Origin: an uncultured Anaerobiospirillum sp.
GTDB lineage: Bacteria > Pseudomonadota > Gammaproteobacteria > Enterobacterales > Succinivibrionaceae
DNA: 64,000 nt
Direction of reading: 5' to 3'
Assembly (NCBI GenBank): GCA_944389785.1
Contig: CALXNP010000001.1
Span: 5,270 to 69,269, forward strand
Program-made: the position numbers and the translations under genes
Notes under the pieces: model-generated
Told to the model about the DNA's origin: nothing
The model's input: the letters and a program-made list of their open reading frames with translations, nothing else
Databases searched by the model: none
In this document: piece after piece, positions 27,334 through 35,951 of the stretch
Numbering within the stretch: position 1 is the first letter of the stretch
How the letters are laid out: the number at the start of each line of letters is the position of its first letter

Positions 27334-27994
27334 TGTTATTGAAGAAATCTCTAAGCGCTCACGTGAAGCTATACTTAATAAGGTAGCTGGTGGTTACAAA
27401 GAAAGTGATTTTTGCCGTAAAGAAACTCAAAATCCTGTAGTGCATATTAAAACTACAGATAATCCTCTTAACGATATGATCACAAGAATGACTGAAAACA
27501 AGTATATTGTTGAACAATGCAGTAAAGATCAATTAGAGGAAACTATCAATAAAATTGTAGCTTCTTATCAGCTAAATAGCATGATGTATCCAAGCGATAT
27601 AGATGGCGTAATTGATATTAATAAAATACAAGCAAGCTCTAAACTGTGTTTTGATAAGCCAATTGAAGATATAAGACATGAAGTCTTCCATACTGACTTT
27701 TCTATAATACAAGCAAGAGCAGGTGTTGCATCTCATGGTGTATGTTTAGTTACTTCATCTGATAAACAACCCCGCATGCTCTCATTAGCACCTACTTTAT
27801 GTATTATGCTATTAAAAAAAGAAGATGTAGTACCATCACTTGTAGATGCACTGCATCTTGTAAAAAAAGAGCATCCTGATTGTTTACCGACTAATATTCT
27901 ATTTATTGCAGGACCTTCACGTACCTCAGATATTGAGCTTGTAACTGTCTTTGGTGTACATGGCTCACAAAAAGTACATGTAATTATTTACTAA
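27326..27994 (+). CDS. lutC: lactate utilization protein C
   Basis: LUD-domain-sized protein (222 aa) in the third position of the lutABC arrangement. Confidence 0.8.
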   Translation: MSNVIEEISKRSREAILNKVAGGYKESDFCRKETQNPVVHIKTTDNPLNDMITRMTENKYIVEQCSKDQLEETINKIVASYQLNSMMYPSDIDGVIDINKIQASSKLCFDKPIEDIRHEVFHTDFSIIQARAGVASHGVCLVTSSDKQPRMLSLAPTLCIMLLKKEDVVPSLVDALHLVKKEHPDCLPTNILFIAGPSRTSDIELVTVFGVHGSQKVHVIIY

Positions 27995-27999
27995 AAAAA

Positions 28000-28036
28000 T
28001 TAAGATCCTAAGACTTAAATATATCTTAGGATCTTA
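28000..28036. terminator. bidirectional hairpin between lutC and the accessory operon
   Basis: TAAGATCCTAAGA (28000-28012) pairs with TCTTAGGATCTTA (28024-28036), a 13-bp perfect stem. Confidence 0.7.
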
Positions 28037-28060
28037 AGTTAAAAATATACTTTATTAAAT

Positions 28061-30448
28061 TTACTTAATTAAAAAGCCATATTCATAAACTTTAGGTTTT
28101 ATTTCTTCACCTAATAGTCTATGTTTTTCCTTTAAAATATTTAATAGTCTTGTATATTCCTTATCCTCAGATGATACATTTAATCTGCCTTTATCATTTT
28201 TTCCTTGAAAATATGCCCTTATATCGTAATAAGATGCATTAGGATTTGAGTCATTTTGAGAGTGATAGTATATGTATAAATCTCTTGCACTATCTAAAAC
28301 ATCTTGTGCTATAACAGATAAAGTCAAATTTTTTAAAAAATCTGACATGAAATGAGACTCTATCACATCTTTTGTATTTATTTGCGACTCTCTAAAAGGA
28401 ATCCAATGATTTACACAATTTAATACTGATATTTTATTTTGTCCATGAAATAAAATATAAATCAAACAATTGTAACAAAACTTTTTATCAGTCAAAACAT
28501 CATCTTTTGGATATAAAAAATTTTCCCTATCATTATACCAACTTGCAGGTAAACACAATCTAACTGCAAGATATACGCAACTTACTAGCAAATTATCTTT
28601 TGTTATTTGCCAATTATGATTATCTGCTTTAACTATTTGATATGGTTGCTCTATGCGTACAGTTCTTTGATGTTGGAAATCACTTGCAATGGCAATAGCC
28701 GTACCAATTGAATTAGGCTCTTTTTTATGACCTCTATAAATTTTTATCCAATCATTAATTAATTTATAATAATCATAACAAATTAATTGTAATTTACCTA
28801 TATTACTAGCATTCTCATCTAAAATATCAACAAGTGGAAGATACTTATAATTATCTTGACTATCTGCATCAGCTTTCCAGAGTTGAAAAGCTATAGGAAA
28901 ACTACCTTTAACATTATCAAAGGTATAAGCAGGAACCATAAATATTGAACATAATCTTGATTTAAAATTATATCTAAAATCTTTAAAACGAGGTGCTTGA
29001 ATATGCTTTAATGTTGAAAATAATCCAAGTATACAATTTGGAACCTCATTATAAATACGAGCTAGAAACTGAATATATACCTCTCTTTTTGAATATCCCA
29101 TAAAATCAGAGTATTTATTTTGTATTTCAGATATAGCAACATCACTCCGTCCTGTTCCTTTTCGATTATCTGCTTCAGCATATGGAGGATTAATATAAAT
29201 AACTAGCTTTTTACGTTTTTCCTCTGAATTTATAATTTCTTTAAGACCCTCTGGTAAATTATCAAAAGAATCATTTAAGAAATCAAATCTAAACACATGA
29301 GATTCTAATAAATTAGCACCATTTTTGATACGATCTTTCATCACATCAACATCTGCTTGATCAATAGTAGATGCCCAAATATTATATTTATTAGTTAGAC
29401 CATTTAAAAGATTACCAGTGCCCGCACAACAGTCCCAAATAAAATATTCATCCTGCCAATTTTCCCCTAATTCTTTCATTAAATATTCTTGAGATTTTTC
29501 TACCCATATTTGTGGAGTAAAGTAAGAACCCTTTCTTTCTCTAATATCTTGAGGTACAAGCAAATCACGACGATCAATAATATATTGCCAAAAATCTTTG
29601 CGTGGAGGTCGTTTATATATATTCCAAAATTTTTTATGAGCTAACTGATCATCATTAAAGGATGCTTTTGTTACAGCTTCTAACCCATACTCATCAACTT
29701 TTCTGCCAAACTCATAATGATCTGTCTTTAAAAGCACAAATAAAGCATCTTTTAATGTCTCATCCTTTTTAGATAACAAATCAGCTAAATAAAAATCAGC
29801 ATCAATTAAACCTGCTTTTTTAACTAAATCCCACTTTATATTAATAGTAGGTTTTACTTCTTTTAACCATTTAAAATATACTGAAGTAAAATTATTCTTA
29901 GTTATTTCAATCTTTCTAACATTATTTCTGCCTACTATAAAATTATTTTTAATAAAGGCTCTTAATTCTTGATCTTGCGTCTCATAGTTAAAAATTAAAG
30001 AACTACTTTCTAGTTCTTCTTTAACTAAGCCTAGTAAATATTTAAACTCTCTAGTCTTGTGATTAGATGGAGTTACCTGCCAATTAAAATCATTTTTAAT
30101 TAGAACATTTGCTATTAAAGAATAATCAACAAAAGCTATCTTTTCAGCATCAAAAGCCCCTATGAATATAGGTGGTAAAAACTTTTCAAATGTTCTTTCT
30201 CTACCTATTGTTAAAATTAATTGTACAAATGATTCATAGATATCGTGATTAGTACCTTTTTTGGCTTCTGCCCACAAAAAATATTGATCAAAATTATCAA
30301 ATAAATCAACTATACCACCTTTAGTATTAGATTTTAAAATAGCAAAATCAATTCTACCTACCTGTGCCATTCTAAAATCAGCAAAATAATCATCTCTAAC
30401 TTGAATTTTAAGAGTTTCTTCAAGCATTGTGCTACTATATTTTGACAT
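28061..30448 (-). CDS. Type IIG/IIL-like fusion protein: N-terminal PD-ExK-like nuclease motif plus gamma-class N6-adenine methyltransferase plus C-terminal putative target-recognition region
   Basis: MTase motifs occur in gamma order: motif X GSYFTPQIWV, motif I IWDCCAGTGNLL, motif IV VIYINPPYAE, then REVYIQFLARIY. The N-terminus has D34/D48...E61-A-K63 (IDFAIL...VDLFDNFDQYFLWAEAKKG). AAGGA lies 7 nt before the ATG. It sits 33 nt downstream of the preceding ORF with no hairpin between them. Confidence 0.6.
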   Translation of the reverse strand: MSKYSSTMLEETLKIQVRDDYFADFRMAQVGRIDFAILKSNTKGGIVDLFDNFDQYFLWAEAKKGTNHDIYESFVQLILTIGRERTFEKFLPPIFIGAFDAEKIAFVDYSLIANVLIKNDFNWQVTPSNHKTREFKYLLGLVKEELESSSLIFNYETQDQELRAFIKNNFIVGRNNVRKIEITKNNFTSVYFKWLKEVKPTINIKWDLVKKAGLIDADFYLADLLSKKDETLKDALFVLLKTDHYEFGRKVDEYGLEAVTKASFNDDQLAHKKFWNIYKRPPRKDFWQYIIDRRDLLVPQDIRERKGSYFTPQIWVEKSQEYLMKELGENWQDEYFIWDCCAGTGNLLNGLTNKYNIWASTIDQADVDVMKDRIKNGANLLESHVFRFDFLNDSFDNLPEGLKEIINSEEKRKKLVIYINPPYAEADNRKGTGRSDVAISEIQNKYSDFMGYSKREVYIQFLARIYNEVPNCILGLFSTLKHIQAPRFKDFRYNFKSRLCSIFMVPAYTFDNVKGSFPIAFQLWKADADSQDNYKYLPLVDILDENASNIGKLQLICYDYYKLINDWIKIYRGHKKEPNSIGTAIAIASDFQHQRTVRIEQPYQIVKADNHNWQITKDNLLVSCVYLAVRLCLPASWYNDRENFLYPKDDVLTDKKFCYNCLIYILFHGQNKISVLNCVNHWIPFRESQINTKDVIESHFMSDFLKNLTLSVIAQDVLDSARDLYIYYHSQNDSNPNASYYDIRAYFQGKNDKGRLNVSSEDKEYTRLLNILKEKHRLLGEEIKPKVYEYGFLIK

Positions 30449-30481
30449 TAAAAATTCCTTTATATGTTAGCTTTTAAGTAA

Positions 30482-31234
30482 CTATTTAATGATACTAAGC
30501 TCTTTACTAAAGAGCTTTTCATAGAGTTTGATATCATCTACACTATCACACTCAAGCCATAAATCATTAGTTGGCAACACAGTTATCTGTTGTTTAGCTG
30601 CTATAAGTTTTTGTAATAAACTTGTACAATCAAGCTTTAATATTTGCTCATCGGTCATAGTATCAAGTATTTTTTGAGTATTAGCCCAAGAGTTTGGAGT
30701 AAATTTAATAATACCCATGAATTGACCTTGAATACGATCTTTTGTAGTAACTCTTTGACCTATATCAGTAAGCAGCATATTGCTATCAAATTCAAAAGAC
30801 TCTAAATCTTCAAAAGGATTATCACAACGCTGTTCCCATAACTCCCAAAAATGAGCATAAGATGGCAATACTAAATCTTGTGTTGTATTTAATACTTTGG
30901 TAATGACATTAGCTGAAAATACTATATCTGAGTATACAACTAAACAAGTTTCATTTATTAAATATTGTTTAGCTTCAAGTAAAGATCTAACCATATTGCC
31001 TTGATTCCACATGGCATTATGTAATGTTTTTACTTTAACTTTTTGCTCTATTTGTTCTTTTTTATAACCTGTAACTATAACAATATCTTCTTGTTTTATA
31101 TTAGCTTGCTCTAAACTATATAAACATCTATCAAGCAAGCTATGATTTGCAAGTGATACTAAGCACTTTGGTATACTATCTGTTAAATGTAATAACCTAC
31201 TGCCTCTGCCTGCTGCTAAAATAATGATCTTCAT
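30482..31234 (-). CDS. nucleotidyltransferase, Cj1416-like (candidate CTP:phosphoglutamine cytidylyltransferase)
   Basis: N-terminal NTP-transferase signature MKIIILAAGRGSRL...PKCL. 250 aa. Overlaps the upstream amidotransferase-like gene by 4 nt. The functional call rests on operon context. Confidence 0.65.
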   Translation of the reverse strand: MKIIILAAGRGSRLLHLTDSIPKCLVSLANHSLLDRCLYSLEQANIKQEDIVIVTGYKKEQIEQKVKVKTLHNAMWNQGNMVRSLLEAKQYLINETCLVVYSDIVFSANVITKVLNTTQDLVLPSYAHFWELWEQRCDNPFEDLESFEFDSNMLLTDIGQRVTTKDRIQGQFMGIIKFTPNSWANTQKILDTMTDEQILKLDCTSLLQKLIAAKQQITVLPTNDLWLECDSVDDIKLYEKLFSKELSIIK

Positions 31235-31827
31235 AGCTCAAAATGATCCTTAATTAATTTAACATCCAAACAATTACCTAATAATTCACGCTCTGGATGC
31301 CACATTACAGCTTTTAGATTTTCATGACCTATACAAGTTATAGCTTCAATTACCTTATCCTCATTTGAGTGTTTTAAAGCTACTAAAGGAGATTTTAACT
31401 CATATGCACCATAGTTATGATAACTATTAACTACACTGCCATCATCAAGTTCATGACACACACGTACATGATTAATCACAGGATATAAATCAACATTAAA
31501 ATGATCTAAAATTACCTGCATGCCTCGACATACACCTAAAAGCTTAAGATTATGCTCTAAAGCATAATCTATTAAAAAATGCTCTAACTCATCCCTATCT
31601 TTAGTATCACCACCATATTTATATAAGGTATTACCACCTGATAAGATAATACCATCTATCTTAATTTGAGCTAAAAGCTCCTTAGTTAAGATAAGATTAT
31701 TAGGTGCCATAAGAGGTAAAAAGCCACAACGTAATGCTAACTTATACCAATCATGAGCTAAAACATCACGTACCTCTTGTATATCTTTTTTACACTCAAC
31801 TTTTTGTGTAATTAAAATCTTTTTCAT
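31231..31827 (-). CDS. class I glutamine amidotransferase / peptidase C26-like hydrolase, Cj1417-like (candidate gamma-glutamyl-CDP-amidate hydrolase)
   Basis: Nucleophile elbow LLGVCRGMQVI and His-x-Glu MWHPE. 198 aa. 4-nt overlaps on both sides. Confidence 0.7.
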   Translation of the reverse strand: MKKILITQKVECKKDIQEVRDVLAHDWYKLALRCGFLPLMAPNNLILTKELLAQIKIDGIILSGGNTLYKYGGDTKDRDELEHFLIDYALEHNLKLLGVCRGMQVILDHFNVDLYPVINHVRVCHELDDGSVVNSYHNYGAYELKSPLVALKHSNEDKVIEAITCIGHENLKAVMWHPERELLGNCLDVKLIKDHFEL

Positions 31828-34115
31828 AACAGGCTAATTTGCTTATTTCTGCAATCAATTTTTAATGCTTTAGCATTTTTATATTTATTAAATAATTTCT
31901 CGCCCACACCAATAACAGCTGGCAATTCAAATTCTGCAGCCCTAATAGACATATGCGAGTTAGCACCACCATAAGCTGTAATTAAACCAGCGATGTTATG
32001 TGCAAAAATCCAATCATAACCAGGATCTGCTCCATTTATTAAAGCAATCTTGCCACTAATATCACTACATGGCAGCAGTGCAATAGGTGCAGTGACACTT
32101 TTTTGCGTAATGAAATTTGGACTATCATCTTGTAAACTAAAACTATAAACTTGATCGCTGCTATAAATTAAAGGAGGCAAACATATACTAGTTAAAATCT
32201 TATCCTGAGCTTTACCTTGTGCTATAGATTCAAGCAAACATTGCTTAATATCACATATTGAAGAGTTAGTATCTAATAAAGCTCTAATATCAACATAGCT
32301 TAATTCTTCACGACTTAAACCATACTCCTCACCTAATTGAGCTATAAGCTCAATCACATCTGATAAAGTTTTTGTAAAGACAAATTTGGCTAACTCTCTG
32401 CCTTCTATTGCTCCTTTAATAAAATTAAATAAAGATAAAACATCTGTATCTAAATGATGCTCATTAATTAATCTATCTAAAGATGCAATCTGTTCTAAAC
32501 TAAGCTTAAACTTAGTTGTATTTTTTATACTGCTTTCAATACTATTAGCAAAATACTCATCTCCCTTATGATCATAGCGCATTGAACATATATCATAAGT
32601 ACCAGGACGTAAATGACCATACTTCTTATAAAAACTTTGTTTGCTCAAAGTGCTATAATCATGCGACATGTTTTTAGCTACAGTAGATAATTCCCCCATA
32701 AAAGCATCTTTATCAGATTCTGATAAAATACCCACACATACAAGTGAACGAAGCAGTTCAACAGCTATAAAAGCAGCTCTAGCTAAACCTGCAAAAGGTA
32801 AAGTACCATAGCGCTTACAATATTCAAGCAGCCAATAGATTTTTTCACTTACAGGCAAACTACTTTGTAATATACTTAAAGCTTTATTTGAAAGTAACTC
32901 AACCTTACTTCTATCTACAGTCCATAGACCATTACTTTTTATAATAGAATTAGTAAGCTTAAGCAAAGATTGCTTCAAATTAGCTAAATCATCGTGAGTA
33001 AAACTTTTATCTAATCTTTGTAACTTGCTATCAATATCAAAACTATAACAGGTAATAGCAATTTCAAACTCAATTTTATCATGCAGATGGGGATTACTCT
33101 TTAATCTGTCTAAATAAAAATTAACTAATTTTTGTGATAAATCATCAGGTAAATTTTTTGGTACAAAAGAATTAAAGCTAATCCTTGCATCTATATACGG
33201 CATACCATAAAAATCTAACATTAAAGCAAATGAGCGTAAATTTTGATAACCATAATTATCTCTTTGATATGCCCAAACACCATTTGTTATGATTTCTTTA
33301 TATAAACTCAAAGCTAAAGGTTTAGGTCTAATACCTATCATCTCAGCTGGATTCCAATCTGGCATAACACCATAAATAGCATAAGAGCCATATAAATTAG
33401 GATGGGGTTGTGATTGTTGTTTTATCTTATTCTCAATATGACCTAAAATCTTAGTTTGTGTATTAAGATCAAAGATCTTTTGACGCATAACTAAAGGTCT
33501 TACCTGCAACAAATATAACTTTGAGCCCACATAAGCAAATTCAATATCTAAATTAGCTATTTCATACAAAGACTCAAGCTCAGCACAAAGTTTAAGTAAA
33601 GATGAAAATGGCTCACAAATATCTATAGGACTTTGTTTATAATGGTATAAAGTTTTTAAATTACGCCCACTTCCATCAGTTACAGAGCTTGTTGAACCTG
33701 TAGTGTCATCATAATTTAAAACATAATAATTACCACCAGTATTTGGTTCAAGAGTAAAAACTACACCACAAATATCTACATTATTTAGGTAAGGCTGTAT
33801 AAAAAGATAATTCTCTCCTTTAATATCCATAGATTGCTTAACTTGCTCAATAGCTTCATAAAGCTCATCTTTGCTCTGCACATTAGCAATTGATAAAAAC
33901 TTACCTGCATTTGAACAATTTGCTGTATCCTCATTACAAGATGAACTTCTAACTATATAAGGACCACAACCTAACTTATTTATTGTTTGTACATAAATTT
34001 GCTCACAATCGAATTTATCGTTTGTGTTTAAAACAAGCATAGGTAAAACAGTAGCACTTGTTAATTTATCTTGAAGCTCAAGTAGAGTTAAAGCTTTTGA
34101 TTTAAAGGAGAGCAT
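31824..34115 (-). CDS. PEP-utilising/PPDK-type phosphotransferase, Cj1418-like (candidate L-glutamine kinase)
   Basis: 763 aa. N-terminal ATP-grasp-like PPDK_N region (FKSKALTLLEL...) and a C-terminal mobile phospho-His domain (GGANSHMSIRAAEFELPAVIGVG, His at about 721). Confidence 0.7.
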   Translation of the reverse strand: MLSFKSKALTLLELQDKLTSATVLPMLVLNTNDKFDCEQIYVQTINKLGCGPYIVRSSSCNEDTANCSNAGKFLSIANVQSKDELYEAIEQVKQSMDIKGENYLFIQPYLNNVDICGVVFTLEPNTGGNYYVLNYDDTTGSTSSVTDGSGRNLKTLYHYKQSPIDICEPFSSLLKLCAELESLYEIANLDIEFAYVGSKLYLLQVRPLVMRQKIFDLNTQTKILGHIENKIKQQSQPHPNLYGSYAIYGVMPDWNPAEMIGIRPKPLALSLYKEIITNGVWAYQRDNYGYQNLRSFALMLDFYGMPYIDARISFNSFVPKNLPDDLSQKLVNFYLDRLKSNPHLHDKIEFEIAITCYSFDIDSKLQRLDKSFTHDDLANLKQSLLKLTNSIIKSNGLWTVDRSKVELLSNKALSILQSSLPVSEKIYWLLEYCKRYGTLPFAGLARAAFIAVELLRSLVCVGILSESDKDAFMGELSTVAKNMSHDYSTLSKQSFYKKYGHLRPGTYDICSMRYDHKGDEYFANSIESSIKNTTKFKLSLEQIASLDRLINEHHLDTDVLSLFNFIKGAIEGRELAKFVFTKTLSDVIELIAQLGEEYGLSREELSYVDIRALLDTNSSICDIKQCLLESIAQGKAQDKILTSICLPPLIYSSDQVYSFSLQDDSPNFITQKSVTAPIALLPCSDISGKIALINGADPGYDWIFAHNIAGLITAYGGANSHMSIRAAEFELPAVIGVGEKLFNKYKNAKALKIDCRNKQISLL

Positions 34116-34120
34116 TACAC

Positions 34121-34873
34121 TTAGTCCTTCTTTCTTGCAAAATATACTCTAGTAGTGTAAGGCACATCTACAGTATCTTGATAAGATTTATGAATTAAAG
34201 CTGAAATTTGATTGATAATTGAGTTAAATAACTCTGGAGACTGACGGTATAAAGTGCCATGAGACTTCCATCCTTCAATAAAACTATCAACTGCAACCTT
34301 ATGAACTACATGTCCCTCAAGATAACCTACATTATCAAAAAGATTTGAACTTTCAATAACCTTAGTTTGATCTTCACGGCGACTGCCATAATCATAATCT
34401 TTAATATTACTTTTAATAATATCCTCAATTGCTTTTTGTAGTGGATCATCTAAATCTCTATGATTCCACATACATGCAAAATAACCATGACTTTTTAAAA
34501 TACGACTAGATTCTTTAAGTGCAAGTAAACGATCACAAACATTAAAAGATGAGCCAAAAGTTACTAAAGAAAAGGCATTAGACTCCATCTTAGTATCTTC
34601 ACCTACACCTTCAAACCATTGTACATTTTTAAATTCTTTAGTACGCTCTTGACCATTAGCACGCATTGCATCATTTGGCTCAATAGCACAAACTTGTAAA
34701 TCACGTTTTGCTAATTCTAAAGTTAAATGTGCAGCACCTGCACCAACATCACATACCTTATCACCAGCTTTAATTTGTGCAATATCTAAAAGCTTATCTA
34801 TAGCCTCGCTAGCATAATCTGGACGATGTAAATAAGCTTGTGCTAAATTGGTATAATCCCAAACTGTTTTCAT
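34121..34873 (-). CDS. class I SAM-dependent methyltransferase (Cj1419/Cj1420-like)
   Basis: Motif I VCDVGAGAAHLT and post-I acidic CAIEPND. 250 aa. 5-nt gap to the next gene. Confidence 0.75.
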   Translation of the reverse strand: MKTVWDYTNLAQAYLHRPDYASEAIDKLLDIAQIKAGDKVCDVGAGAAHLTLELAKRDLQVCAIEPNDAMRANGQERTKEFKNVQWFEGVGEDTKMESNAFSLVTFGSSFNVCDRLLALKESSRILKSHGYFACMWNHRDLDDPLQKAIEDIIKSNIKDYDYGSRREDQTKVIESSNLFDNVGYLEGHVVHKVAVDSFIEGWKSHGTLYRQSPELFNSIINQISALIHKSYQDTVDVPYTTRVYFARKKD

Positions 34874-34885
34874 TTTAATACCTTT

Positions 34886-35386
34886 TTATTTGCTATTACT
34901 ATAAGTTAAAATTTGAGCAACTAATTGCTCTAATGTATATACCCCATCATTCTCAAGAATAATATCAGGATGTTGAGGCAATTCTACAGCTACATCTATT
35001 CCTGCAACAGAAGCATTTGTAGTACTGTATAAATTTTTTTGATTTCTTTGATATAGAACTTCTCTGCTTACTTTAACATAAATTTCTATATAATTATCAA
35101 TATTAGCTCTGTTCCATGCTCTAACAGCATCAAACATAGAGATAGTACAACAAACAACAATTTGACCTTGACTTGCTAAAAGTTTACATAATCTTGCATT
35201 ACACATAGCTACTTTATATCTATCTTCTTTAGTGTAACCAAAATTATCACCATAAACCTCTCGCAAAGTATCACCATCTAAGAACACTATATTATTATGC
35301 TCTTGCTGCAAGTGTGTATATAACCTATGACCTATGCTGCTTTTACCAGCACCTGCTAAACCTGTAATCCAAAAAACTTGTGCCAT
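34886..35386 (-). CDS. adenylylsulfate-kinase-fold kinase, Cj1415-like (candidate cytidine diphosphoramidate kinase)
   Basis: P-loop GLAGAGKSS and an APS-kinase-like LDGDTLR...GYTKEDR. 166 aa. First gene of the operon. No other sulfate-assimilation gene lies nearby. Confidence 0.72.
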   Translation of the reverse strand: MAQVFWITGLAGAGKSSIGHRLYTHLQQEHNNIVFLDGDTLREVYGDNFGYTKEDRYKVAMCNARLCKLLASQGQIVVCCTISMFDAVRAWNRANIDNYIEIYVKVSREVLYQRNQKNLYSTTNASVAGIDVAVELPQHPDIILENDGVYTLEQLVAQILTYSNSK

Positions 35387-35567
35387 ACTTTTTCTTCTTA
35401 GTTAAAACTATACATATATTACATTGTTATGCTTTTACATACAAGTAAAGCATTTATTATTAATATTTTAAAATCATTTAATATTAAAATAAAATTAACT
35501 AGTTATATACTATGTAAATCTTAGATATAATTAGAACCGTTATTTAAAATGATATATGGAGTCATTT

Positions 35568-35951
35568 ATGAAGATTAAAGCACGTTTTGATCACTTTAAT
35601 ATTAATGTTACAAACCTAGAAAAAAGTATTGAATTTTATCAAAAAGCTCTTGGTTTGCATGAAGCTAAAAGAAAAGAAGCACAAGATGGTTCTTTTACAC
35701 TAGTTTATTTACAAGATGACTATTGCCACTTTATGTTAGAACTTACTTATTTAAAAGATAGAACTGAACCTTATAATTTAGGTGATAATGAAAGTCATAT
35801 TTGCTTTAGAGTTGAAAATGATTATGAAGAGTGCTTTAAATATCATCAACAAATGGGTTGTGTTTGCTATGTAAATGAAAAAATGGGACTTTACTTTATT
35901 CACGATCCTGATGATTATTGGATTGAAATTTTAAAAGTAAAACATGATTAA
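35568..35951 (+). CDS. VOC-family protein (glyoxalase I-like)
   Basis: FDHFNINVTNLEKSIEFYQKALGL resembles the GloA N-terminus, with a C-terminal DPDDYWIEIL. The ATG at 35568 has TGGAG 6 nt upstream. The track start at 35556 overlaps that Shine-Dalgarno. Confidence 0.7.
   Translation: MKIKARFDHFNINVTNLEKSIEFYQKALGLHEAKRKEAQDGSFTLVYLQDDYCHFMLELTYLKDRTEPYNLGDNESHICFRVENDYEECFKYHQQMGCVCYVNEKMGLYFIHDPDDYWIEILKVKHD

What the first reader, a model, noticed from the sequence alone, without database searches (positions are those of the whole stretch)
28061..35386. Campylobacter-type phosphoramidate (MeOPN) donor pathway in one operon with a Type IIG-like nuclease/N6-methyltransferase, and no capsule context
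**Seen in the sequence**
- Six minus-strand ORFs are packed with 4-nt overlaps (31824/31827 and 31231/31234) and gaps of 5, 12 and 33 nt.
- I can find no hairpin or T-run in any junction.
- The last ORF has its own AAGGA Shine-Dalgarno but no visible promoter or terminator in the 33-nt spacer at 30449-30481.

**Motifs identifying the products**
- APS-kinase fold (GLAGAGKSS, LDGDTLR), 166 aa.
- Class I SAM methyltransferase (VCDVGAGA), 250 aa.
- PEP-utilising phospho-His enzyme (GGANSHMSIRAAEFELPAVIG), 763 aa.
- Class I amidotransferase triad (CRGMQ, HPE), 198 aa.
- Nucleotidyltransferase (LAAGRGSRL), 250 aa.

**Established knowledge.** In C. jejuni NCTC 11168 this same family set makes 3'-phospho-cytidine-5'-diphosphoramidate. 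Cj1418 is the L-glutamine kinase. Cj1416 is the CTP:phosphoglutamine cytidylyltransferase. Cj1417 is the gamma-glutamyl-CDP-amidate hydrolase. Cj1415 is the cytidine diphosphoramidate kinase. Cj1419/Cj1420 are methyltransferases. Dedicated transferases (Cj1421/Cj1422) then decorate capsular sugars inside the kps locus.

**Inference.** This window carries the complete donor pathway but no glycosyltransferase, no kps gene and no Cj1421/1422-like gene. The only remaining operon member is a 795-aa NPPY/PD-ExK protein.

NPPY pockets bind planar NH2 groups: adenine N6, cytosine N4, and the glutamine amide in PrmC/HemK. That leaves three possibilities:
- (a) The phosphoramidate donor, or its methylated product, is used in a nucleic-acid or other non-glycan modification linked to a restriction-like enzyme.
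- (b) The NPPY protein acts on the P-NH2 or glutamine-amide chemistry itself.
- (c) A surface-modification module and an R-M gene were simply co-acquired as an anti-phage island. MeOPN is a known phage receptor determinant in Campylobacter.

I do not know of any of these arrangements being described.
Basis: partly seen in the sequence, partly recalled or inferred. Interest (0 to 1): 0.86.

Follow-up and report, generated by a model that had tools for sequence, protein, structure and literature searches.

The report
Phosphoramidate operon beside mobile restriction-like gene
A gut bacterium carries the five genes that make the rare phosphoramidate sugar-decoration donor directly upstream of a restriction-modification-like gene, but everywhere else the two occur separately, so this looks like two mobile modules that landed side by side rather than a new DNA chemistry.

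Summary
Six tightly packed minus-strand genes lie at 28061-35386. The only terminator-like hairpin follows the last gene. The rest of the 64-kb window is housekeeping genes of a Succinivibrionaceae gut bacterium.

Five genes form a Campylobacter-type phosphoramidate (MeOPN) donor cassette. The same gene order recurs in five unrelated contigs. There it comes with a 550-670-aa putative transferase family and a PHP 3',5'-bisphosphate phosphatase. Both are absent from this window.

The 795-aa protein has gamma-class N6-adenine DNA methyltransferase motifs and a Type IIG/IIL-like fold (BpuSI, DrdV, MmeI). It belongs to a very large family that Pfam does not cover.
- In 97 other loci it never sits near any pathway gene and has no recurrent neighbour.
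- Its closest outside relative (69%) is the passenger of an IS1595 transposon.
- Other relatives sit in phage-like contigs and on small plasmids.
- Within this species, residues 426-684 have been swapped as a cassette while the flanks stay about 99.7% identical. That is typical recognition-domain exchange.

Verdict: probably incidental juxtaposition, possibly co-transcribed, of two horizontally acquired modules. There is no evidence for phosphoramidate chemistry on nucleic acids. Interest is modest.

The parts
35387..35555 (-). AT-rich intergenic region upstream of the first gene, shared with the divergent glyoxalase-family gene at 35556-35951. It is the presumed promoter region of the six-gene unit.
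   Evidence: It is the only sizeable non-coding gap upstream of the cluster. No specific promoter was established.
34886..35386 (-). 166-aa APS-kinase-fold protein. Inferred to be a cytidine diphosphoramidate 3'-kinase (Cj1415-type).
   Evidence: - Pfam APS_kinase 1.2e-28; NCBIfam PRK05541 at 178 bits, above its cutoff of 127.
- It is the first gene of the homologous cassettes in L029, L031, L033 and L118, at 54-58% identity.
34121..34873 (-). 250-aa class I SAM methyltransferase. Inferred to be the O-methyltransferase of the phosphoramidate pathway (the Cj1419/Cj1420 role).
   Evidence: - Methyltransf_11/25 and Ubie_methyltran hits.
- 64-66% identical to the gene at the same position in L029, L031 and L118.
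- Its substrate was not tested.
31824..34115 (-). 763-aa PEP-utilising phospho-histidine enzyme. Inferred to be an L-glutamine kinase (Cj1418-type).
   Evidence: - NCBIfam PRK05849 at 946 bits over its full length (cutoff 501).
- Pfam PPDK_N plus PEP-utilizers.
- 6771 relatives found, the nearest outside the species at 59% identity.
31231..31827 (-). 198-aa class I amidotransferase / peptidase C26. Inferred to be a gamma-glutamyl-CDP-amidate hydrolase (Cj1417-type).
   Evidence: - The best NCBIfam model is NF045546 (E 5.4e-31, 108 bits, below its cutoff of 250). The next best is PuuD at 1.4e-10.
- 44-48% identical to the gene at the same position in all five other cassettes.
30482..31234 (-). 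250-aa nucleotidyltransferase. Inferred to be a CTP:phosphoglutamine cytidylyltransferase (Cj1416-type).
   Evidence: - NTP_transf_3 6e-14.
- The closest solved relative is CTP:phosphocholine cytidylyltransferase, 1.9e-08.
- 43-46% identical to the last cassette gene in all five other loci.
30449..30481 (-). 33-nt spacer with an AAGGA ribosome-binding site ahead of the 795-aa gene. It has no terminator. It marks the junction between the two modules.
   Evidence: Nucleotide similarity to the IS1595-borne homologue begins 1 nt before the ATG, so the spacer is not shared with that element.
29174..30448 (-). Residues 1-425 of the 795-aa protein:
- a putative PD-(D/E)XK nuclease domain (D34, E61, K63);
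- a helical/beta linker;
- the first half of a gamma-class N6-adenine methyltransferase domain, with motif X GSYFTP at 307-312, motif I DCCAGTGN at 339-346 and motif IV NPPY at 420-423.
   Evidence: - These residues are invariant in 29 homologues.
- AlphaFold2 model with pLDDT 82.5.
- Foldseek against PDB: BpuSI 1.5e-10, then DrdV, CamA, HsdM, LlaBIII, MmeI and M.BseCI.
- The N-terminal domain alone gives only weak matches, E>=0.08, and nucleases are prominent among them.
28397..29173 (-). Residues 426-684 of the 795-aa protein. This is a hypervariable cassette covering the second half of the methyltransferase fold and a beta-rich putative target-recognition domain. It has been exchanged between strains of the same species.
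   Evidence: - Window against L021: about 387 differences in 28250-29249, against 0-3 per 250 nt in the flanks.
- At protein level, residues 1-425 and 685-795 are nearly identical and 426-684 are highly divergent.
- The IS-borne homologue shares nucleotide similarity only outside this segment.
28061..28396 (-). Residues 685-795 of the 795-aa protein plus the stop codon. This is a conserved C-terminal helical domain.
   Evidence: pLDDT is at least 86. It is identical between alleles.
28000..28037 (-). Terminator-like hairpin with a 15-bp stem followed by TTTTTTT. It lies between the convergent 795-aa gene and lutC, and probably ends the six-gene transcript.

Best explanation
Two unrelated, horizontally acquired modules lie head to tail between rbfA/glyoxalase and lutC in an uncultured, low-GC Succinivibrionaceae gut bacterium.

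**Module 1 (30482-35386).** This is a five-gene cassette for the activated phosphoramidate donor of the Campylobacter MeOPN pathway. The inferred steps are:
1. Glutamine kinase phosphorylates L-glutamine.
2. A cytidylyltransferase makes CDP-glutamine.
3. A C26 hydrolase releases cytidine diphosphoramidate.
4. An APS-kinase-like enzyme adds the 3'-phosphate.
5. A SAM methyltransferase supplies the O-methyl group.

The cassette's usual partners are not in this window. These are a 550-670-aa putative phosphoramidate transferase and a PHP-type 3',5'-bisphosphate phosphatase that would recycle pCp. The acceptor-side enzymes must therefore be elsewhere in the genome, or the cassette is an incomplete remnant.

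**Module 2 (28061-30448).** This is a stand-alone, single-polypeptide DNA N6-adenine methyltransferase of Type IIG/IIL architecture. It has a putative PD-(D/E)XK nuclease domain, then a gamma-class methyltransferase domain, an exchangeable recognition domain and a helical C-terminus. It uses SAM and acts on DNA, like its relatives. It moves on IS1595 transposons, on plasmids and probably on phages. Its specificity domain is swapped between strains.

**Relationship.** The gene landed downstream of the cassette, ahead of the only terminator, so it is probably read through from the cassette promoter. That co-transcription is a consequence of where it inserted, not of shared chemistry.

**Shown:** gene identities at family level, fold, independence of the two families elsewhere, mobility, and the allelic cassette swap.

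**Inferred:** the individual enzyme reactions, nuclease activity, co-transcription, and the absence of a biochemical link.
For: **Module 1 is a donor cassette.**
- Family assignments come: PRK05849 946 bits, PRK05541 178 bits, NF045546 as best hit, NTP_transf_3 and Methyltransf_11.
- The order APS-kinase, methyltransferase, PEP-utiliser, GATase, nucleotidyltransferase recurs in L029, L031 and L118. L033 has it without the methyltransferase, and L117 shows only the last three genes at a contig end. Identities are 43-66%.
- A member of one 550-670-aa family with no Pfam domain accompanies it in 4 of the 5 loci.
- A PHP protein accompanies it in 4 of the 5. One of these PHP proteins (L029) was scanned and matches NCBIfam 3',5'-nucleoside bisphosphate phosphatase at 199 bits, below its cutoff of 400.
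- Neither partner is in the window (tblastn E<=1; HMM E<1).
- Cj1415-1418 make CDP-phosphoramidate 3'-phosphate, and Cj1421/Cj1422 are needed for its transfer (PMC11800397, read).

**Module 2 is a DNA-modification enzyme.**
- Motif X, motif I and motif IV are invariant and in gamma-class order.
- The best Foldseek matches are all DNA N6-adenine methyltransferases or Type IIG/IIL/ISP/I enzymes, with E 1.5e-10 to about 1e-6.

**The two families are independent elsewhere.**
- None of 17 genome loci and none of 80 metagenome loci (924 kb) has any pathway gene, transferase or PHP gene.
- No neighbour family recurs across the 97 loci.
- The 69% homologue lies inside a 3596-bp IS1595 element with 26-bp inverted repeats and 8-bp target duplications, at two different insertion sites.
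- The 60% homologue lies beside T4-like capsid and tail genes.
- More distant copies (27-29% identity) lie on small plasmids, annotated 'hypothetical protein'.

**The 795-aa gene evolves separately from the cassette.**
- Residues 426-684 are replaced between strains whose flanks are about 99.7% identical.
- SNP density in the conserved N-terminal part is about six times that of the pathway genes.
- The window protein keeps every one of the roughly 180 family-invariant residues, so there is no sign of a change of cofactor or substrate.
Against: - In every contig of this species recovered (L018-L024, L119-L121) the six genes stay together. The 33-nt junction has no terminator, so the 795-aa gene is probably co-expressed with the pathway.
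- The cassette lacks its usual transferase and phosphatase exactly where the 795-aa gene sits. In L031, L033/34 and L118 the PHP gene follows the nucleotidyltransferase. This leaves room for the idea that the newcomer replaced something functionally.
- The pathway genes look maintained, with 11 synonymous against 2 non-synonymous codon changes between strains. That is odd for a remnant with no transferase.
- I could not search the rest of this genome for the transferase.
- I could not compare directly with C. jejuni Cj1415-Cj1422 sequences.
Confidence: 0.75

Rival explanations
1. The six genes are a co-selected anti-phage island. The cassette supplies MeOPN to mask or vary a surface glycan that phages use as a receptor, with the transferase encoded elsewhere. 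The co-transcribed restriction-modification enzyme gives a second, intracellular barrier. The link is regulatory and ecological, not chemical.
For: - The arrangement is fixed in all strains seen, with no terminator between the modules.
- Allelic turnover of the recognition domain suggests phage-driven selection.
- MeOPN transferase phase variation alters phage sensitivity in C. jejuni, according to the titles and abstracts of PMC3417653 and PMC5808241 listed.
- Defence genes commonly cluster (general knowledge).
Against: - The pairing is seen in one species only: 0 of 97 loci for the 795-aa family and 0 of 5 cassettes.
- No other defence gene is nearby. PADLOC gives no hit for the 795-aa protein.
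- No transferase is present in the window to put MeOPN on anything.
Confidence: 0.18
2. The 795-aa enzyme has been recruited as the missing transferase. It would place a phosphoramidate or methyl-phosphoramidate group on DNA or RNA, or read such a mark with its nuclease domain. That would be a new nucleic-acid modification system, the first reader's reading (a).
For: - The usual transferase and pCp phosphatase are missing, and the 795-aa gene occupies the slot after the nucleotidyltransferase.
- Co-transcription is likely.
- The pathway genes appear to be under purifying selection.
Against: - The window protein is an ordinary member of a family that is stand-alone in 97 of 97 other loci. It keeps all invariant SAM-binding and NPPY motifs.
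- Parts of the gene are 74-84% identical at nucleotide level to an IS1595 passenger gene with no pathway nearby.
- Only the recognition-domain segment varies between strains, as in ordinary restriction-modification systems.
- It has no similarity to the putative transferase family.
- I know of no natural phosphoramidate modification of DNA (own knowledge).
Confidence: 0.03
3. The NPPY protein works on the pathway's own chemistry, methylating the glutamine amide or the P-NH2 group as PrmC/HemK methylates glutamine.
For: NPPY pockets can accept a glutamine amide (established for PrmC). There is a weak TIGR03534 match over residues 324-429 (E 0.0075).
Against: - 15.7 bits against a cutoff of 199.
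- The fold matches are to DNA enzymes with recognition domains, not to PrmC.
- The family is nearly always found without the pathway.
- A dedicated small methyltransferase is already conserved inside the cassette.
Confidence: 0.01
4. The cassette is a decaying remnant. The 795-aa gene, or the event that brought it, displaced the transferase and phosphatase, and the donor pathway no longer has an output.
For: Both usual partners are absent from 64 kb. The cassette sits among housekeeping genes.
Against: - All five ORFs are intact and of the same length in every strain.
- The ratio of 11 synonymous to 2 non-synonymous changes suggests constraint, although the numbers are small.
Confidence: 0.1

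Closest known systems
Campylobacter jejuni NCTC 11168 MeOPN locus (Cj1415-Cj1422) within the kps capsule cluster
   Same: - It has the same set of enzyme families for the donor: a PEP-utilising glutamine kinase, a nucleotidyltransferase, a C26 amidohydrolase, an APS-kinase-like kinase and a small SAM methyltransferase.
- In C. jejuni, Cj1415-1418 make CDP-phosphoramidate 3'-phosphate (PMC11800397).
   Different: - There is no Cj1421/1422-type transferase candidate, no kps or glycosyltransferase genes, and a housekeeping neighbourhood.
- The host is a Succinivibrionaceae gammaproteobacterium.
- No direct sequence comparison with the Cj proteins could be made.
MeOPN-type cassettes in contigs of other bacteria (L031 assembly named Clostridiales; L029, L033, L117 and L118 hosts unnamed)
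   Same: The five genes are in identical order at 43-66% protein identity.
   Different: - Those cassettes carry one to three paralogues of a 550-670-aa family with no Pfam domain. Most also carry a PHP bisphosphate phosphatase.
- They sit among flagellin/FliB, glycosyltransferase or sugar-nucleotide genes.
- The window has none of these and has the 795-aa gene instead.
Type IIG / IIL single-chain restriction-modification enzymes (BpuSI, DrdV, MmeI)
   Same: - The domain order is N-terminal nuclease-like domain, helical linker, gamma-class N6-adenine methyltransferase, recognition domain and C-terminal helices.
- These enzymes are the best fold matches.
- The gene is stand-alone.
- The recognition region is exchangeable.
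   Different: - It is shorter, at 795 aa against 870-1016 aa.
- It has no Pfam match to MmeI_*, Eco57I or N6_Mtase.
- Sequence identity to the solved structures is only 9-15%.
- The nuclease domain is only weakly supported.
- The family is unusually conserved outside the variable segment, with 59% mean column identity across phyla.
- No activity or recognition site is known.
IS1595-family insertion sequences with passenger genes
   Same: The 69%-identical homologue is carried with a DDE_Tnp_IS1595 transposase between 26-bp inverted repeats, with 8-bp target duplications.
   Different: The window copy has no transposase and no inverted-repeat remnant. It is fixed at one chromosomal site in this species.

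Membership tests
Campylobacter-type phosphoramidate (MeOPN) donor pathway | L-glutamine kinase: a PEP-utilising phospho-His enzyme of the Cj1418 type | tested here: met
   - NCBIfam PRK05849 at 946 bits over its full length (cutoff 501).
- Pfam PPDK_N plus PEP-utilizers.
- That PRK05849 represents Cj1418 is from my own recollection; it was not verified here (one search found no paper naming it).
Campylobacter-type phosphoramidate (MeOPN) donor pathway | Gamma-glutamyl-CDP-amidate hydrolase (Cj1417 type) | tested here: inconclusive
   NF045546 is the best hit by 20 orders of magnitude (E 5.4e-31). At 108 bits it is below the curated cutoff of 250.
Campylobacter-type phosphoramidate (MeOPN) donor pathway | CTP:phosphoglutamine cytidylyltransferase (Cj1416 type) | tested here: inconclusive
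   Only generic NTP_transf_3 and sugar-phosphate nucleotidyltransferase matches were found. The gene's position in the cassette is conserved in five other loci.
Campylobacter-type phosphoramidate (MeOPN) donor pathway | Cytidine diphosphoramidate 3'-kinase (Cj1415 type, APS-kinase fold) | tested here: met
   PRK05541 subfamily at 178 bits (cutoff 127), scoring higher than the CysC equivalog TIGR00455 (102 bits, below its cutoff of 139). No sulfate-activation genes are nearby.
Campylobacter-type phosphoramidate (MeOPN) donor pathway | Direct homology to C. jejuni Cj1415-Cj1420 sequences | not tested
   No C. jejuni sequence could be retrieved with the tools. No Cj1415-1418 structure is in the PDB.
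Campylobacter-type phosphoramidate (MeOPN) donor pathway | Linked phosphoramidate transferase (Cj1421/1422 role) | tested here: not met
   The 550-670-aa family that accompanies 4 of the 5 other cassettes is absent from the window (tblastn E<=1, HMM E<1). That this family equals Cj1421/1422 is an inference from size, paralogy and linkage.
Campylobacter-type phosphoramidate (MeOPN) donor pathway | Location in a capsule or glycan locus | tested here: not met
   All other genes of the 64-kb window are housekeeping.
Type IIG/IIL restriction-modification enzymes | Gamma-class N6-adenine methyltransferase motifs in the order X, I, IV | tested here: met
   GSYFTP at 307-312, DCCAGTGN at 339-346 and NPPY at 420-423 are invariant in 29 homologues.
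Type IIG/IIL restriction-modification enzymes | Overall fold like solved members | tested here: met
   Foldseek: BpuSI 1.5e-10, DrdV 1e-9, MmeI 1.3e-7, and also CamA, HsdM, LlaBIII, M.BseCI and BsaXI. TM-scores are low (0.2-0.3), as expected for multi-domain chains.
Type IIG/IIL restriction-modification enzymes | Fused PD-(D/E)XK endonuclease domain | tested here: inconclusive
   - D34, E61 and K63 are invariant and lie on adjacent beta-strands.
- The N-terminal model (pLDDT 83.8) matches only weakly (E 0.08-2). The matches include the SPARDA complex, HincII, BpuSI, RecU and a Cas4-like protein.
Type IIG/IIL restriction-modification enzymes | Variable target-recognition domain after the methyltransferase core | tested here: met
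   Residues 426-684 are replaced between strains with about 99.7% identical flanks. This is also the least conserved stretch across the family.
Type IIG/IIL restriction-modification enzymes | Membership of a curated sequence family (Pfam MmeI_*, Eco57I, N6_Mtase; PADLOC) | tested here: not met
   No Pfam hit at E<=10 for the window protein. One homologue gives N6_Mtase at E 0.016. PADLOC gives none.
Type IIG/IIL restriction-modification enzymes | Sequence-specific DNA methylation and cleavage | not testable with these tools
   This needs a methylome and in-vitro cleavage assays.
PrmC/HemK glutamine N5-methyltransferases | Match to the PrmC equivalog model | tested here: not met
   TIGR03534 scores 15.7 bits against a cutoff of 199, with no stretch passing on its own.
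Putative phosphoramidate transferase family (550-670 aa, cassette-linked) | Sequence similarity of the 795-aa protein to this family | tested here: not met
   BLASTP finds no hit better than E 0.08, with none to this family better than E 2. A family HMM finds nothing in the window.

The most novel reading that the evidence does not exclude
In this Succinivibrionaceae lineage the restriction-modification-like enzyme has replaced the missing transferase. It would use, or read, the phosphoramidate donor on nucleic acid, which would be the first natural P-N modification of DNA or RNA coupled to a restriction-type nuclease.
Probability: 0.03. Interest if true: 0.9.

Novelty: new member of a known kind. 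Interest (0 to 1): 0.3.

Why it matters
If the link were real it would be a new nucleic-acid modification chemistry. The evidence says it is not. Three smaller points remain.

1. **The donor cassette is widespread.** MeOPN sugars have been described only from Campylobacter (PMC6429109). The cassette is nevertheless common in gut bacteria, with 6771 glutamine-kinase relatives. It has a recurrent, uncharacterised transferase family and a PHP pCp phosphatase as partners. In one case it lies next to flagellin genes.

2. **This Succinivibrionaceae species keeps an intact donor cassette with no transferase nearby.** That raises the question of what it decorates.

3. **The 795-aa protein belongs to a very large family with no curated description.** More than 8000 clusters were found, none covered by Pfam or PADLOC, and the copies seen in RefSeq plasmid records are annotated 'hypothetical protein'. 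These are single-chain DNA methyltransferase or restriction-like enzymes. They travel as IS1595 cargo, on plasmids and in phage-like contigs, and they exchange recognition cassettes. The family is worth a REBASE-style characterisation.

Tried and rejected
- **Retrieving Cj1421/Cj1422 for direct comparison.** No tool gave C. jejuni sequences. Literature searches gave functions only, and the key Raushel manuscripts are not held. I used the cassette-linked 550-670-aa family as a proxy.
- **Profile search of the 795-aa family against PDB sequences.** It gave only Rab/Ras GTPase matches over residues about 497-631 (E 2e-6). I regard these as spurious resemblance around an 'IWDT'-like strand, because the fold search gives methyltransferases.
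- **PADLOC and PHROGs on the 795-aa protein.** Nothing useful was found.
- **Rfam and tRNA scans of the window.** Nothing was found, so there is no integration-site clue.
- **Search for an IS1595 inverted-repeat remnant in the window.** None was found.
- **Search for silent recognition-domain cassettes, paralogues or phase-variable repeats.** None was found, so the allelic variation is by recombination between strains, not by an in-genome switch.
- **Fold search of the N-terminal domain alone.** It was too weak to settle nuclease identity.
- **dN/dS between strains.** There are too few substitutions for more than a hint.
- **PrmC-like reading.** I rejected it on score.

Full report
**1. The observation**

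The six minus-strand ORFs, their 4-nt overlaps and the 5-, 12- and 33-nt gaps are exactly as described. The 33-nt spacer before the last gene carries an AAGGA ribosome-binding site. A scan of 27800-35800 finds no terminator-like site at any junction. The only strong one on the minus strand is a 15-bp-stem hairpin with a T-run at 28037-28000, just after the 795-aa gene and facing the convergent lutC. Promoter-like matches are no more frequent than in shuffled sequence, so they carry no information. A single six-gene transcript is therefore plausible but not shown.

**2. Where the cluster sits**

Pfam annotation of the same contig recovered from public assemblies shows the rest of the window to be housekeeping:
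- tamA-tamB, a Lon-like protease, PHO4, PAP2, trpB-trpA
- SLAC1, serA, a DAHP synthase, lactate permease-lutABC
- the six genes
- a glyoxalase-family gene, rbfA-infB-nusA-rimP
- glmM-folP-ftsH-ftsJ, greA, dnaK-grpE, bamE and rpoD

There are no capsule, LPS or glycosyltransferase genes, no tRNA and no Rfam match. DnaK is 88% identical to that of Succinatimonas hippei, and the next named hits are Succinatimonas and Succinivibrio MAGs. The host is therefore an uncultured, low-GC (about 31%) member of the Succinivibrionaceae, which are gut anaerobes.

**3. The five-enzyme cassette**

Family assignments:
- The 763-aa protein matches NCBIfam PRK05849 over its full length (946 bits, cutoff 501). It has PPDK_N and PEP-utilizers domains.
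- The 198-aa protein's best model by far is NF045546, gamma-glutamyl-CDP-amidate hydrolase (E 5e-31), though it scores below the curated cutoff.
- The 166-aa protein passes the PRK05541 APS-kinase subfamily cutoff.
- The two 250-aa proteins are an NTP_transf_3 nucleotidyltransferase and a Methyltransf_11 enzyme.

In C. jejuni, Cj1415-Cj1418 make CDP-phosphoramidate 3'-phosphate, and Cj1421/Cj1422 are required to place MeOPN on GalfNAc and heptose (PMC11800397).

The glutamine-kinase family is large, with 6771 hits. The nearest relatives outside this species are 59% identical, and those that carry names are from Oscillibacter and Clostridiales.

I examined five independent contexts (L029/30, L031/32, L033/34, L117, L118):
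- The gene order APS-kinase, methyltransferase, kinase, hydrolase, nucleotidyltransferase is conserved wherever the contig reaches. Identities to the window proteins are 43-66%.
- Four of the five carry one or more members of a 550-670-aa family with no Pfam or NCBIfam match.
- Four of the five carry a PHP-domain protein. The one I scanned (from L029) matches 3',5'-nucleoside bisphosphate phosphatase best (199 bits, below its cutoff of 400). That is the activity needed to dispose of pCp after the phosphoramidate is transferred from the 3'-phosphorylated donor (my inference).
- The surroundings are flagellin/FliB, glycosyltransferases or sugar-nucleotide genes.

I take the 550-670-aa family to be the transferase, the role of Cj1421/Cj1422. 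I could not confirm this against the C. jejuni sequences.

Neither that family nor the PHP protein is present anywhere in the 64-kb window (tblastn E<=1; family HMM E<1). The window therefore holds the donor half of the pathway only. The five genes are intact in every strain recovered. Between strains they show 11 synonymous against 2 non-synonymous codon changes, a weak hint that they are maintained.

**4. The 795-aa protein**

*Sequence and fold.*
- It has no Pfam hit even at E<=10, no PADLOC hit and no meaningful PHROGs hit.
- It belongs to a very large family. Members are about 800 aa long and 50-55% identical across Bacteroidota, Fibrobacter, Treponema and Methylophilaceae.
- In an alignment of 29 members about 180 positions are invariant. 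They include GS(F/Y)FTP (motif X), DCCAGTGN (motif I) and NPPY (motif IV) in the gamma-class order, and an N-terminal D34...E61-A-K63.
- An AlphaFold2 model (pLDDT 82.5) matches, by Foldseek against the PDB, only DNA N6-adenine methyltransferases and single-chain restriction-modification enzymes: BpuSI (1.5e-10), DrdV, CamA, a Type I HsdM, LlaBIII, MmeI, M.BseCI and BsaXI.
- The N-terminal 296 residues modelled alone (pLDDT 83.8) give only weak matches (E>=0.08). PD-(D/E)XK nucleases are prominent among them: HincII, BpuSI and RecU, together with a SPARDA complex chain and a Cas4-family protein, which I take to be of the same fold from general knowledge. The nuclease assignment is therefore plausible, not proven.
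- A profile search of PDB sequences gave only Rab GTPase matches over residues about 497-631. I treat these as spurious.

- Among 17 loci from species-representative genomes and 80 loci from metagenomes (924 kb), each with up to 10 kb on either side, none contains any of the five pathway enzymes, the putative transferase, the PHP protein or an IS1595 transposase.
- Clustering all flanking ORFs shows no recurrent neighbour at all. The gene is a stand-alone unit, and in some loci it is split by frameshifts.
- Conversely, none of the five other cassettes has a relative of the 795-aa protein.

*Mobility.*
- The closest relative outside this species (P0008, 69%) lies 14 nt downstream of an IS1595-family transposase.
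- Comparing two insertion sites defines a 3596-bp element. It is bounded by 26-bp inverted repeats and flanked by 8-bp direct repeats, ATTAAATT between lptF and lptG and AATAGAAA at the other site.
- Its gene is 84% identical at nucleotide level to the first 1278 nt of the window gene and 74% identical to the last 350 nt. It shows no nucleotide similarity in between.
- Another relative (P0021, 60%) lies in phage-like contigs beside Gp23-type capsid, T4 gp15 and tail-tube genes and other DNA methyltransferases.
- More distant copies (27-42% identity) sit on small plasmids of Acinetobacter, Fluviibacter and Helicobacter, annotated 'hypothetical protein' where a gene is called.
- There is no inverted-repeat remnant in the window.

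*Variation within the species.*
- Contigs of the same species have the same six genes at the same site (L018-L024, L119-L121). Their flanks are about 99.7% identical.
- In the P0003 allele, window 28397-29173 (residues 426-684) is replaced by a sequence differing at roughly 45% of nucleotides. Residues 1-425 and 685-795 remain nearly identical.
- That segment starts right after NPPY. It covers the rest of the methyltransferase fold and a beta-rich domain, which is where gamma-class enzymes carry their recognition domain.
- Such cassette exchange is what is seen in restriction-modification specificity genes (general knowledge).
- Even the conserved N-terminal part has about six times the SNP density of the pathway genes. 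The 795-aa gene therefore has its own recombination history.
- No silent cassettes, paralogues or phase-variable repeats are present.

**5. Explanation**

The simplest account is that two horizontally acquired modules sit next to each other. Module 1 is a MeOPN-donor cassette. Its transferase and phosphatase are elsewhere or lost. Module 2 is a mobile, SAM-dependent, Type IIG/IIL-like DNA adenine methyltransferase, probably with nuclease activity, that inserted ahead of the cassette's terminator and is probably read through.

Three observations argue against any change of chemistry:
- The window protein keeps every family-invariant residue.
- Its nearest relatives work without the pathway.
- Only its recognition segment varies.

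I put this explanation at about 0.75. A co-selected 'surface masking plus restriction' island is possible (about 0.18) but rests on one species. A remnant cassette overlaps with the main reading (about 0.1). Phosphoramidate modification of nucleic acid (about 0.03) and PrmC-like action on the amide (about 0.01; 15.7 bits against a cutoff of 199) are not excluded by experiment, but nothing positive supports them beyond adjacency and the missing transferase.

**6. Comparison and novelty**

The cassette is a new member of the Campylobacter-type donor pathway, in an unusual transferase-less, non-glycan context. The 795-aa protein has the architecture of Type IIG/IIL enzymes but fails membership of any curated sequence family. 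It is best described as a member of an uncurated family of a known kind.

The combination is, as far as my survey goes, unique to this species and most likely incidental. Interest is modest (0.3). It rests on three things:
- the orphan donor cassette;
- the wide, largely unremarked spread of MeOPN-type cassettes with a PHP phosphatase and a candidate transferase family;
- the uncharacterised mobile methyltransferase family.

Noticed in passing
L025 8867-12462 and L026 8867-12462: A 3596-bp IS1595-family element carries the transposase and a 796-aa homologue of the 795-aa gene as passenger. It has 26-bp terminal inverted repeats (GCT(T/C)TGTTGTAAAAGTGTATTGATTT) and 8-bp target duplications. One copy is inserted between lptF and lptG. 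The other lies between a UDG gene and a gene with no Pfam match.
   Followed up: yes
L124 4348-6738 and neighbours; L126: A 60%-identical homologue (P0021) lies in phage-like contigs next to Gp23-type capsid, T4 gp15 and tail-tube genes and other DNA methyltransferases (N6_N4_Mtase, EcoRI_methylase). The curated phage collection gave no match.
   Followed up: partly
L029 6150-8737; L031 4896-8740, 13643-16289; L117 5058-6914; L118 4961-6658, 13643-14473: MeOPN-type donor cassettes in other bacteria are accompanied by a 550-670-aa family with no Pfam or NCBIfam match, often in 2-3 paralogues. Most also have a PHP protein resembling 3',5'-nucleoside bisphosphate phosphatase. These are probably the transferase and the pCp-recycling enzyme.
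   Followed up: partly
L031 1795-4877: One donor cassette sits directly after flagellin and FliB-like genes in a Clostridiales MAG. This suggests phosphoramidate decoration of a flagellin glycan rather than a capsule.
   Followed up: no
window 28397-29173: At least three alleles of the 795-aa gene circulate in this species: the window allele, P0001 (97%) and P0003 (79%). P0002 (81%, host not checked) may be a fourth. Nearly all the difference lies in one internal cassette.
   Followed up: yes
795-aa protein residues about 497-631 (window about 28556-28960): The family profile gives weak but repeated matches to Rab/Ras small GTPases in PDB (E 2e-6). Two homologues carry a precomputed PF00071 hit. 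This is probably spurious, but it is unexplained.
   Followed up: partly
L006 9929-12439; L016 9995-12416; plasmid NZ_KM583817.1 3213-6097: Several homologues of the 795-aa gene are split into two or three pieces. They are apparent pseudogenes, as is common for restriction-modification genes.
   Followed up: no
window 35556-35951: A 131-aa glyoxalase/VOC-family gene is divergently transcribed from the cassette's upstream region and is present in all strains. Whether it belongs to the acquired island is unknown.
   Followed up: no
window about 880-1317 (L035 21195-21626): A HicB-like antitoxin gene and several small ORFs with no Pfam match lie near the start of the window, next to an MFS transporter gene.
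   Followed up: no
window 28061-35386 compared with the flanks: The nearest relatives of both modules come from other gut lineages: Bacteroidota, Fibrobacter and Treponema for the 795-aa gene, and Oscillibacter and Clostridiales for the cassette. This is consistent with horizontal acquisition within the gut community. GC content of the island (0.26-0.32) is only slightly below that of the flanks.
   Followed up: partly
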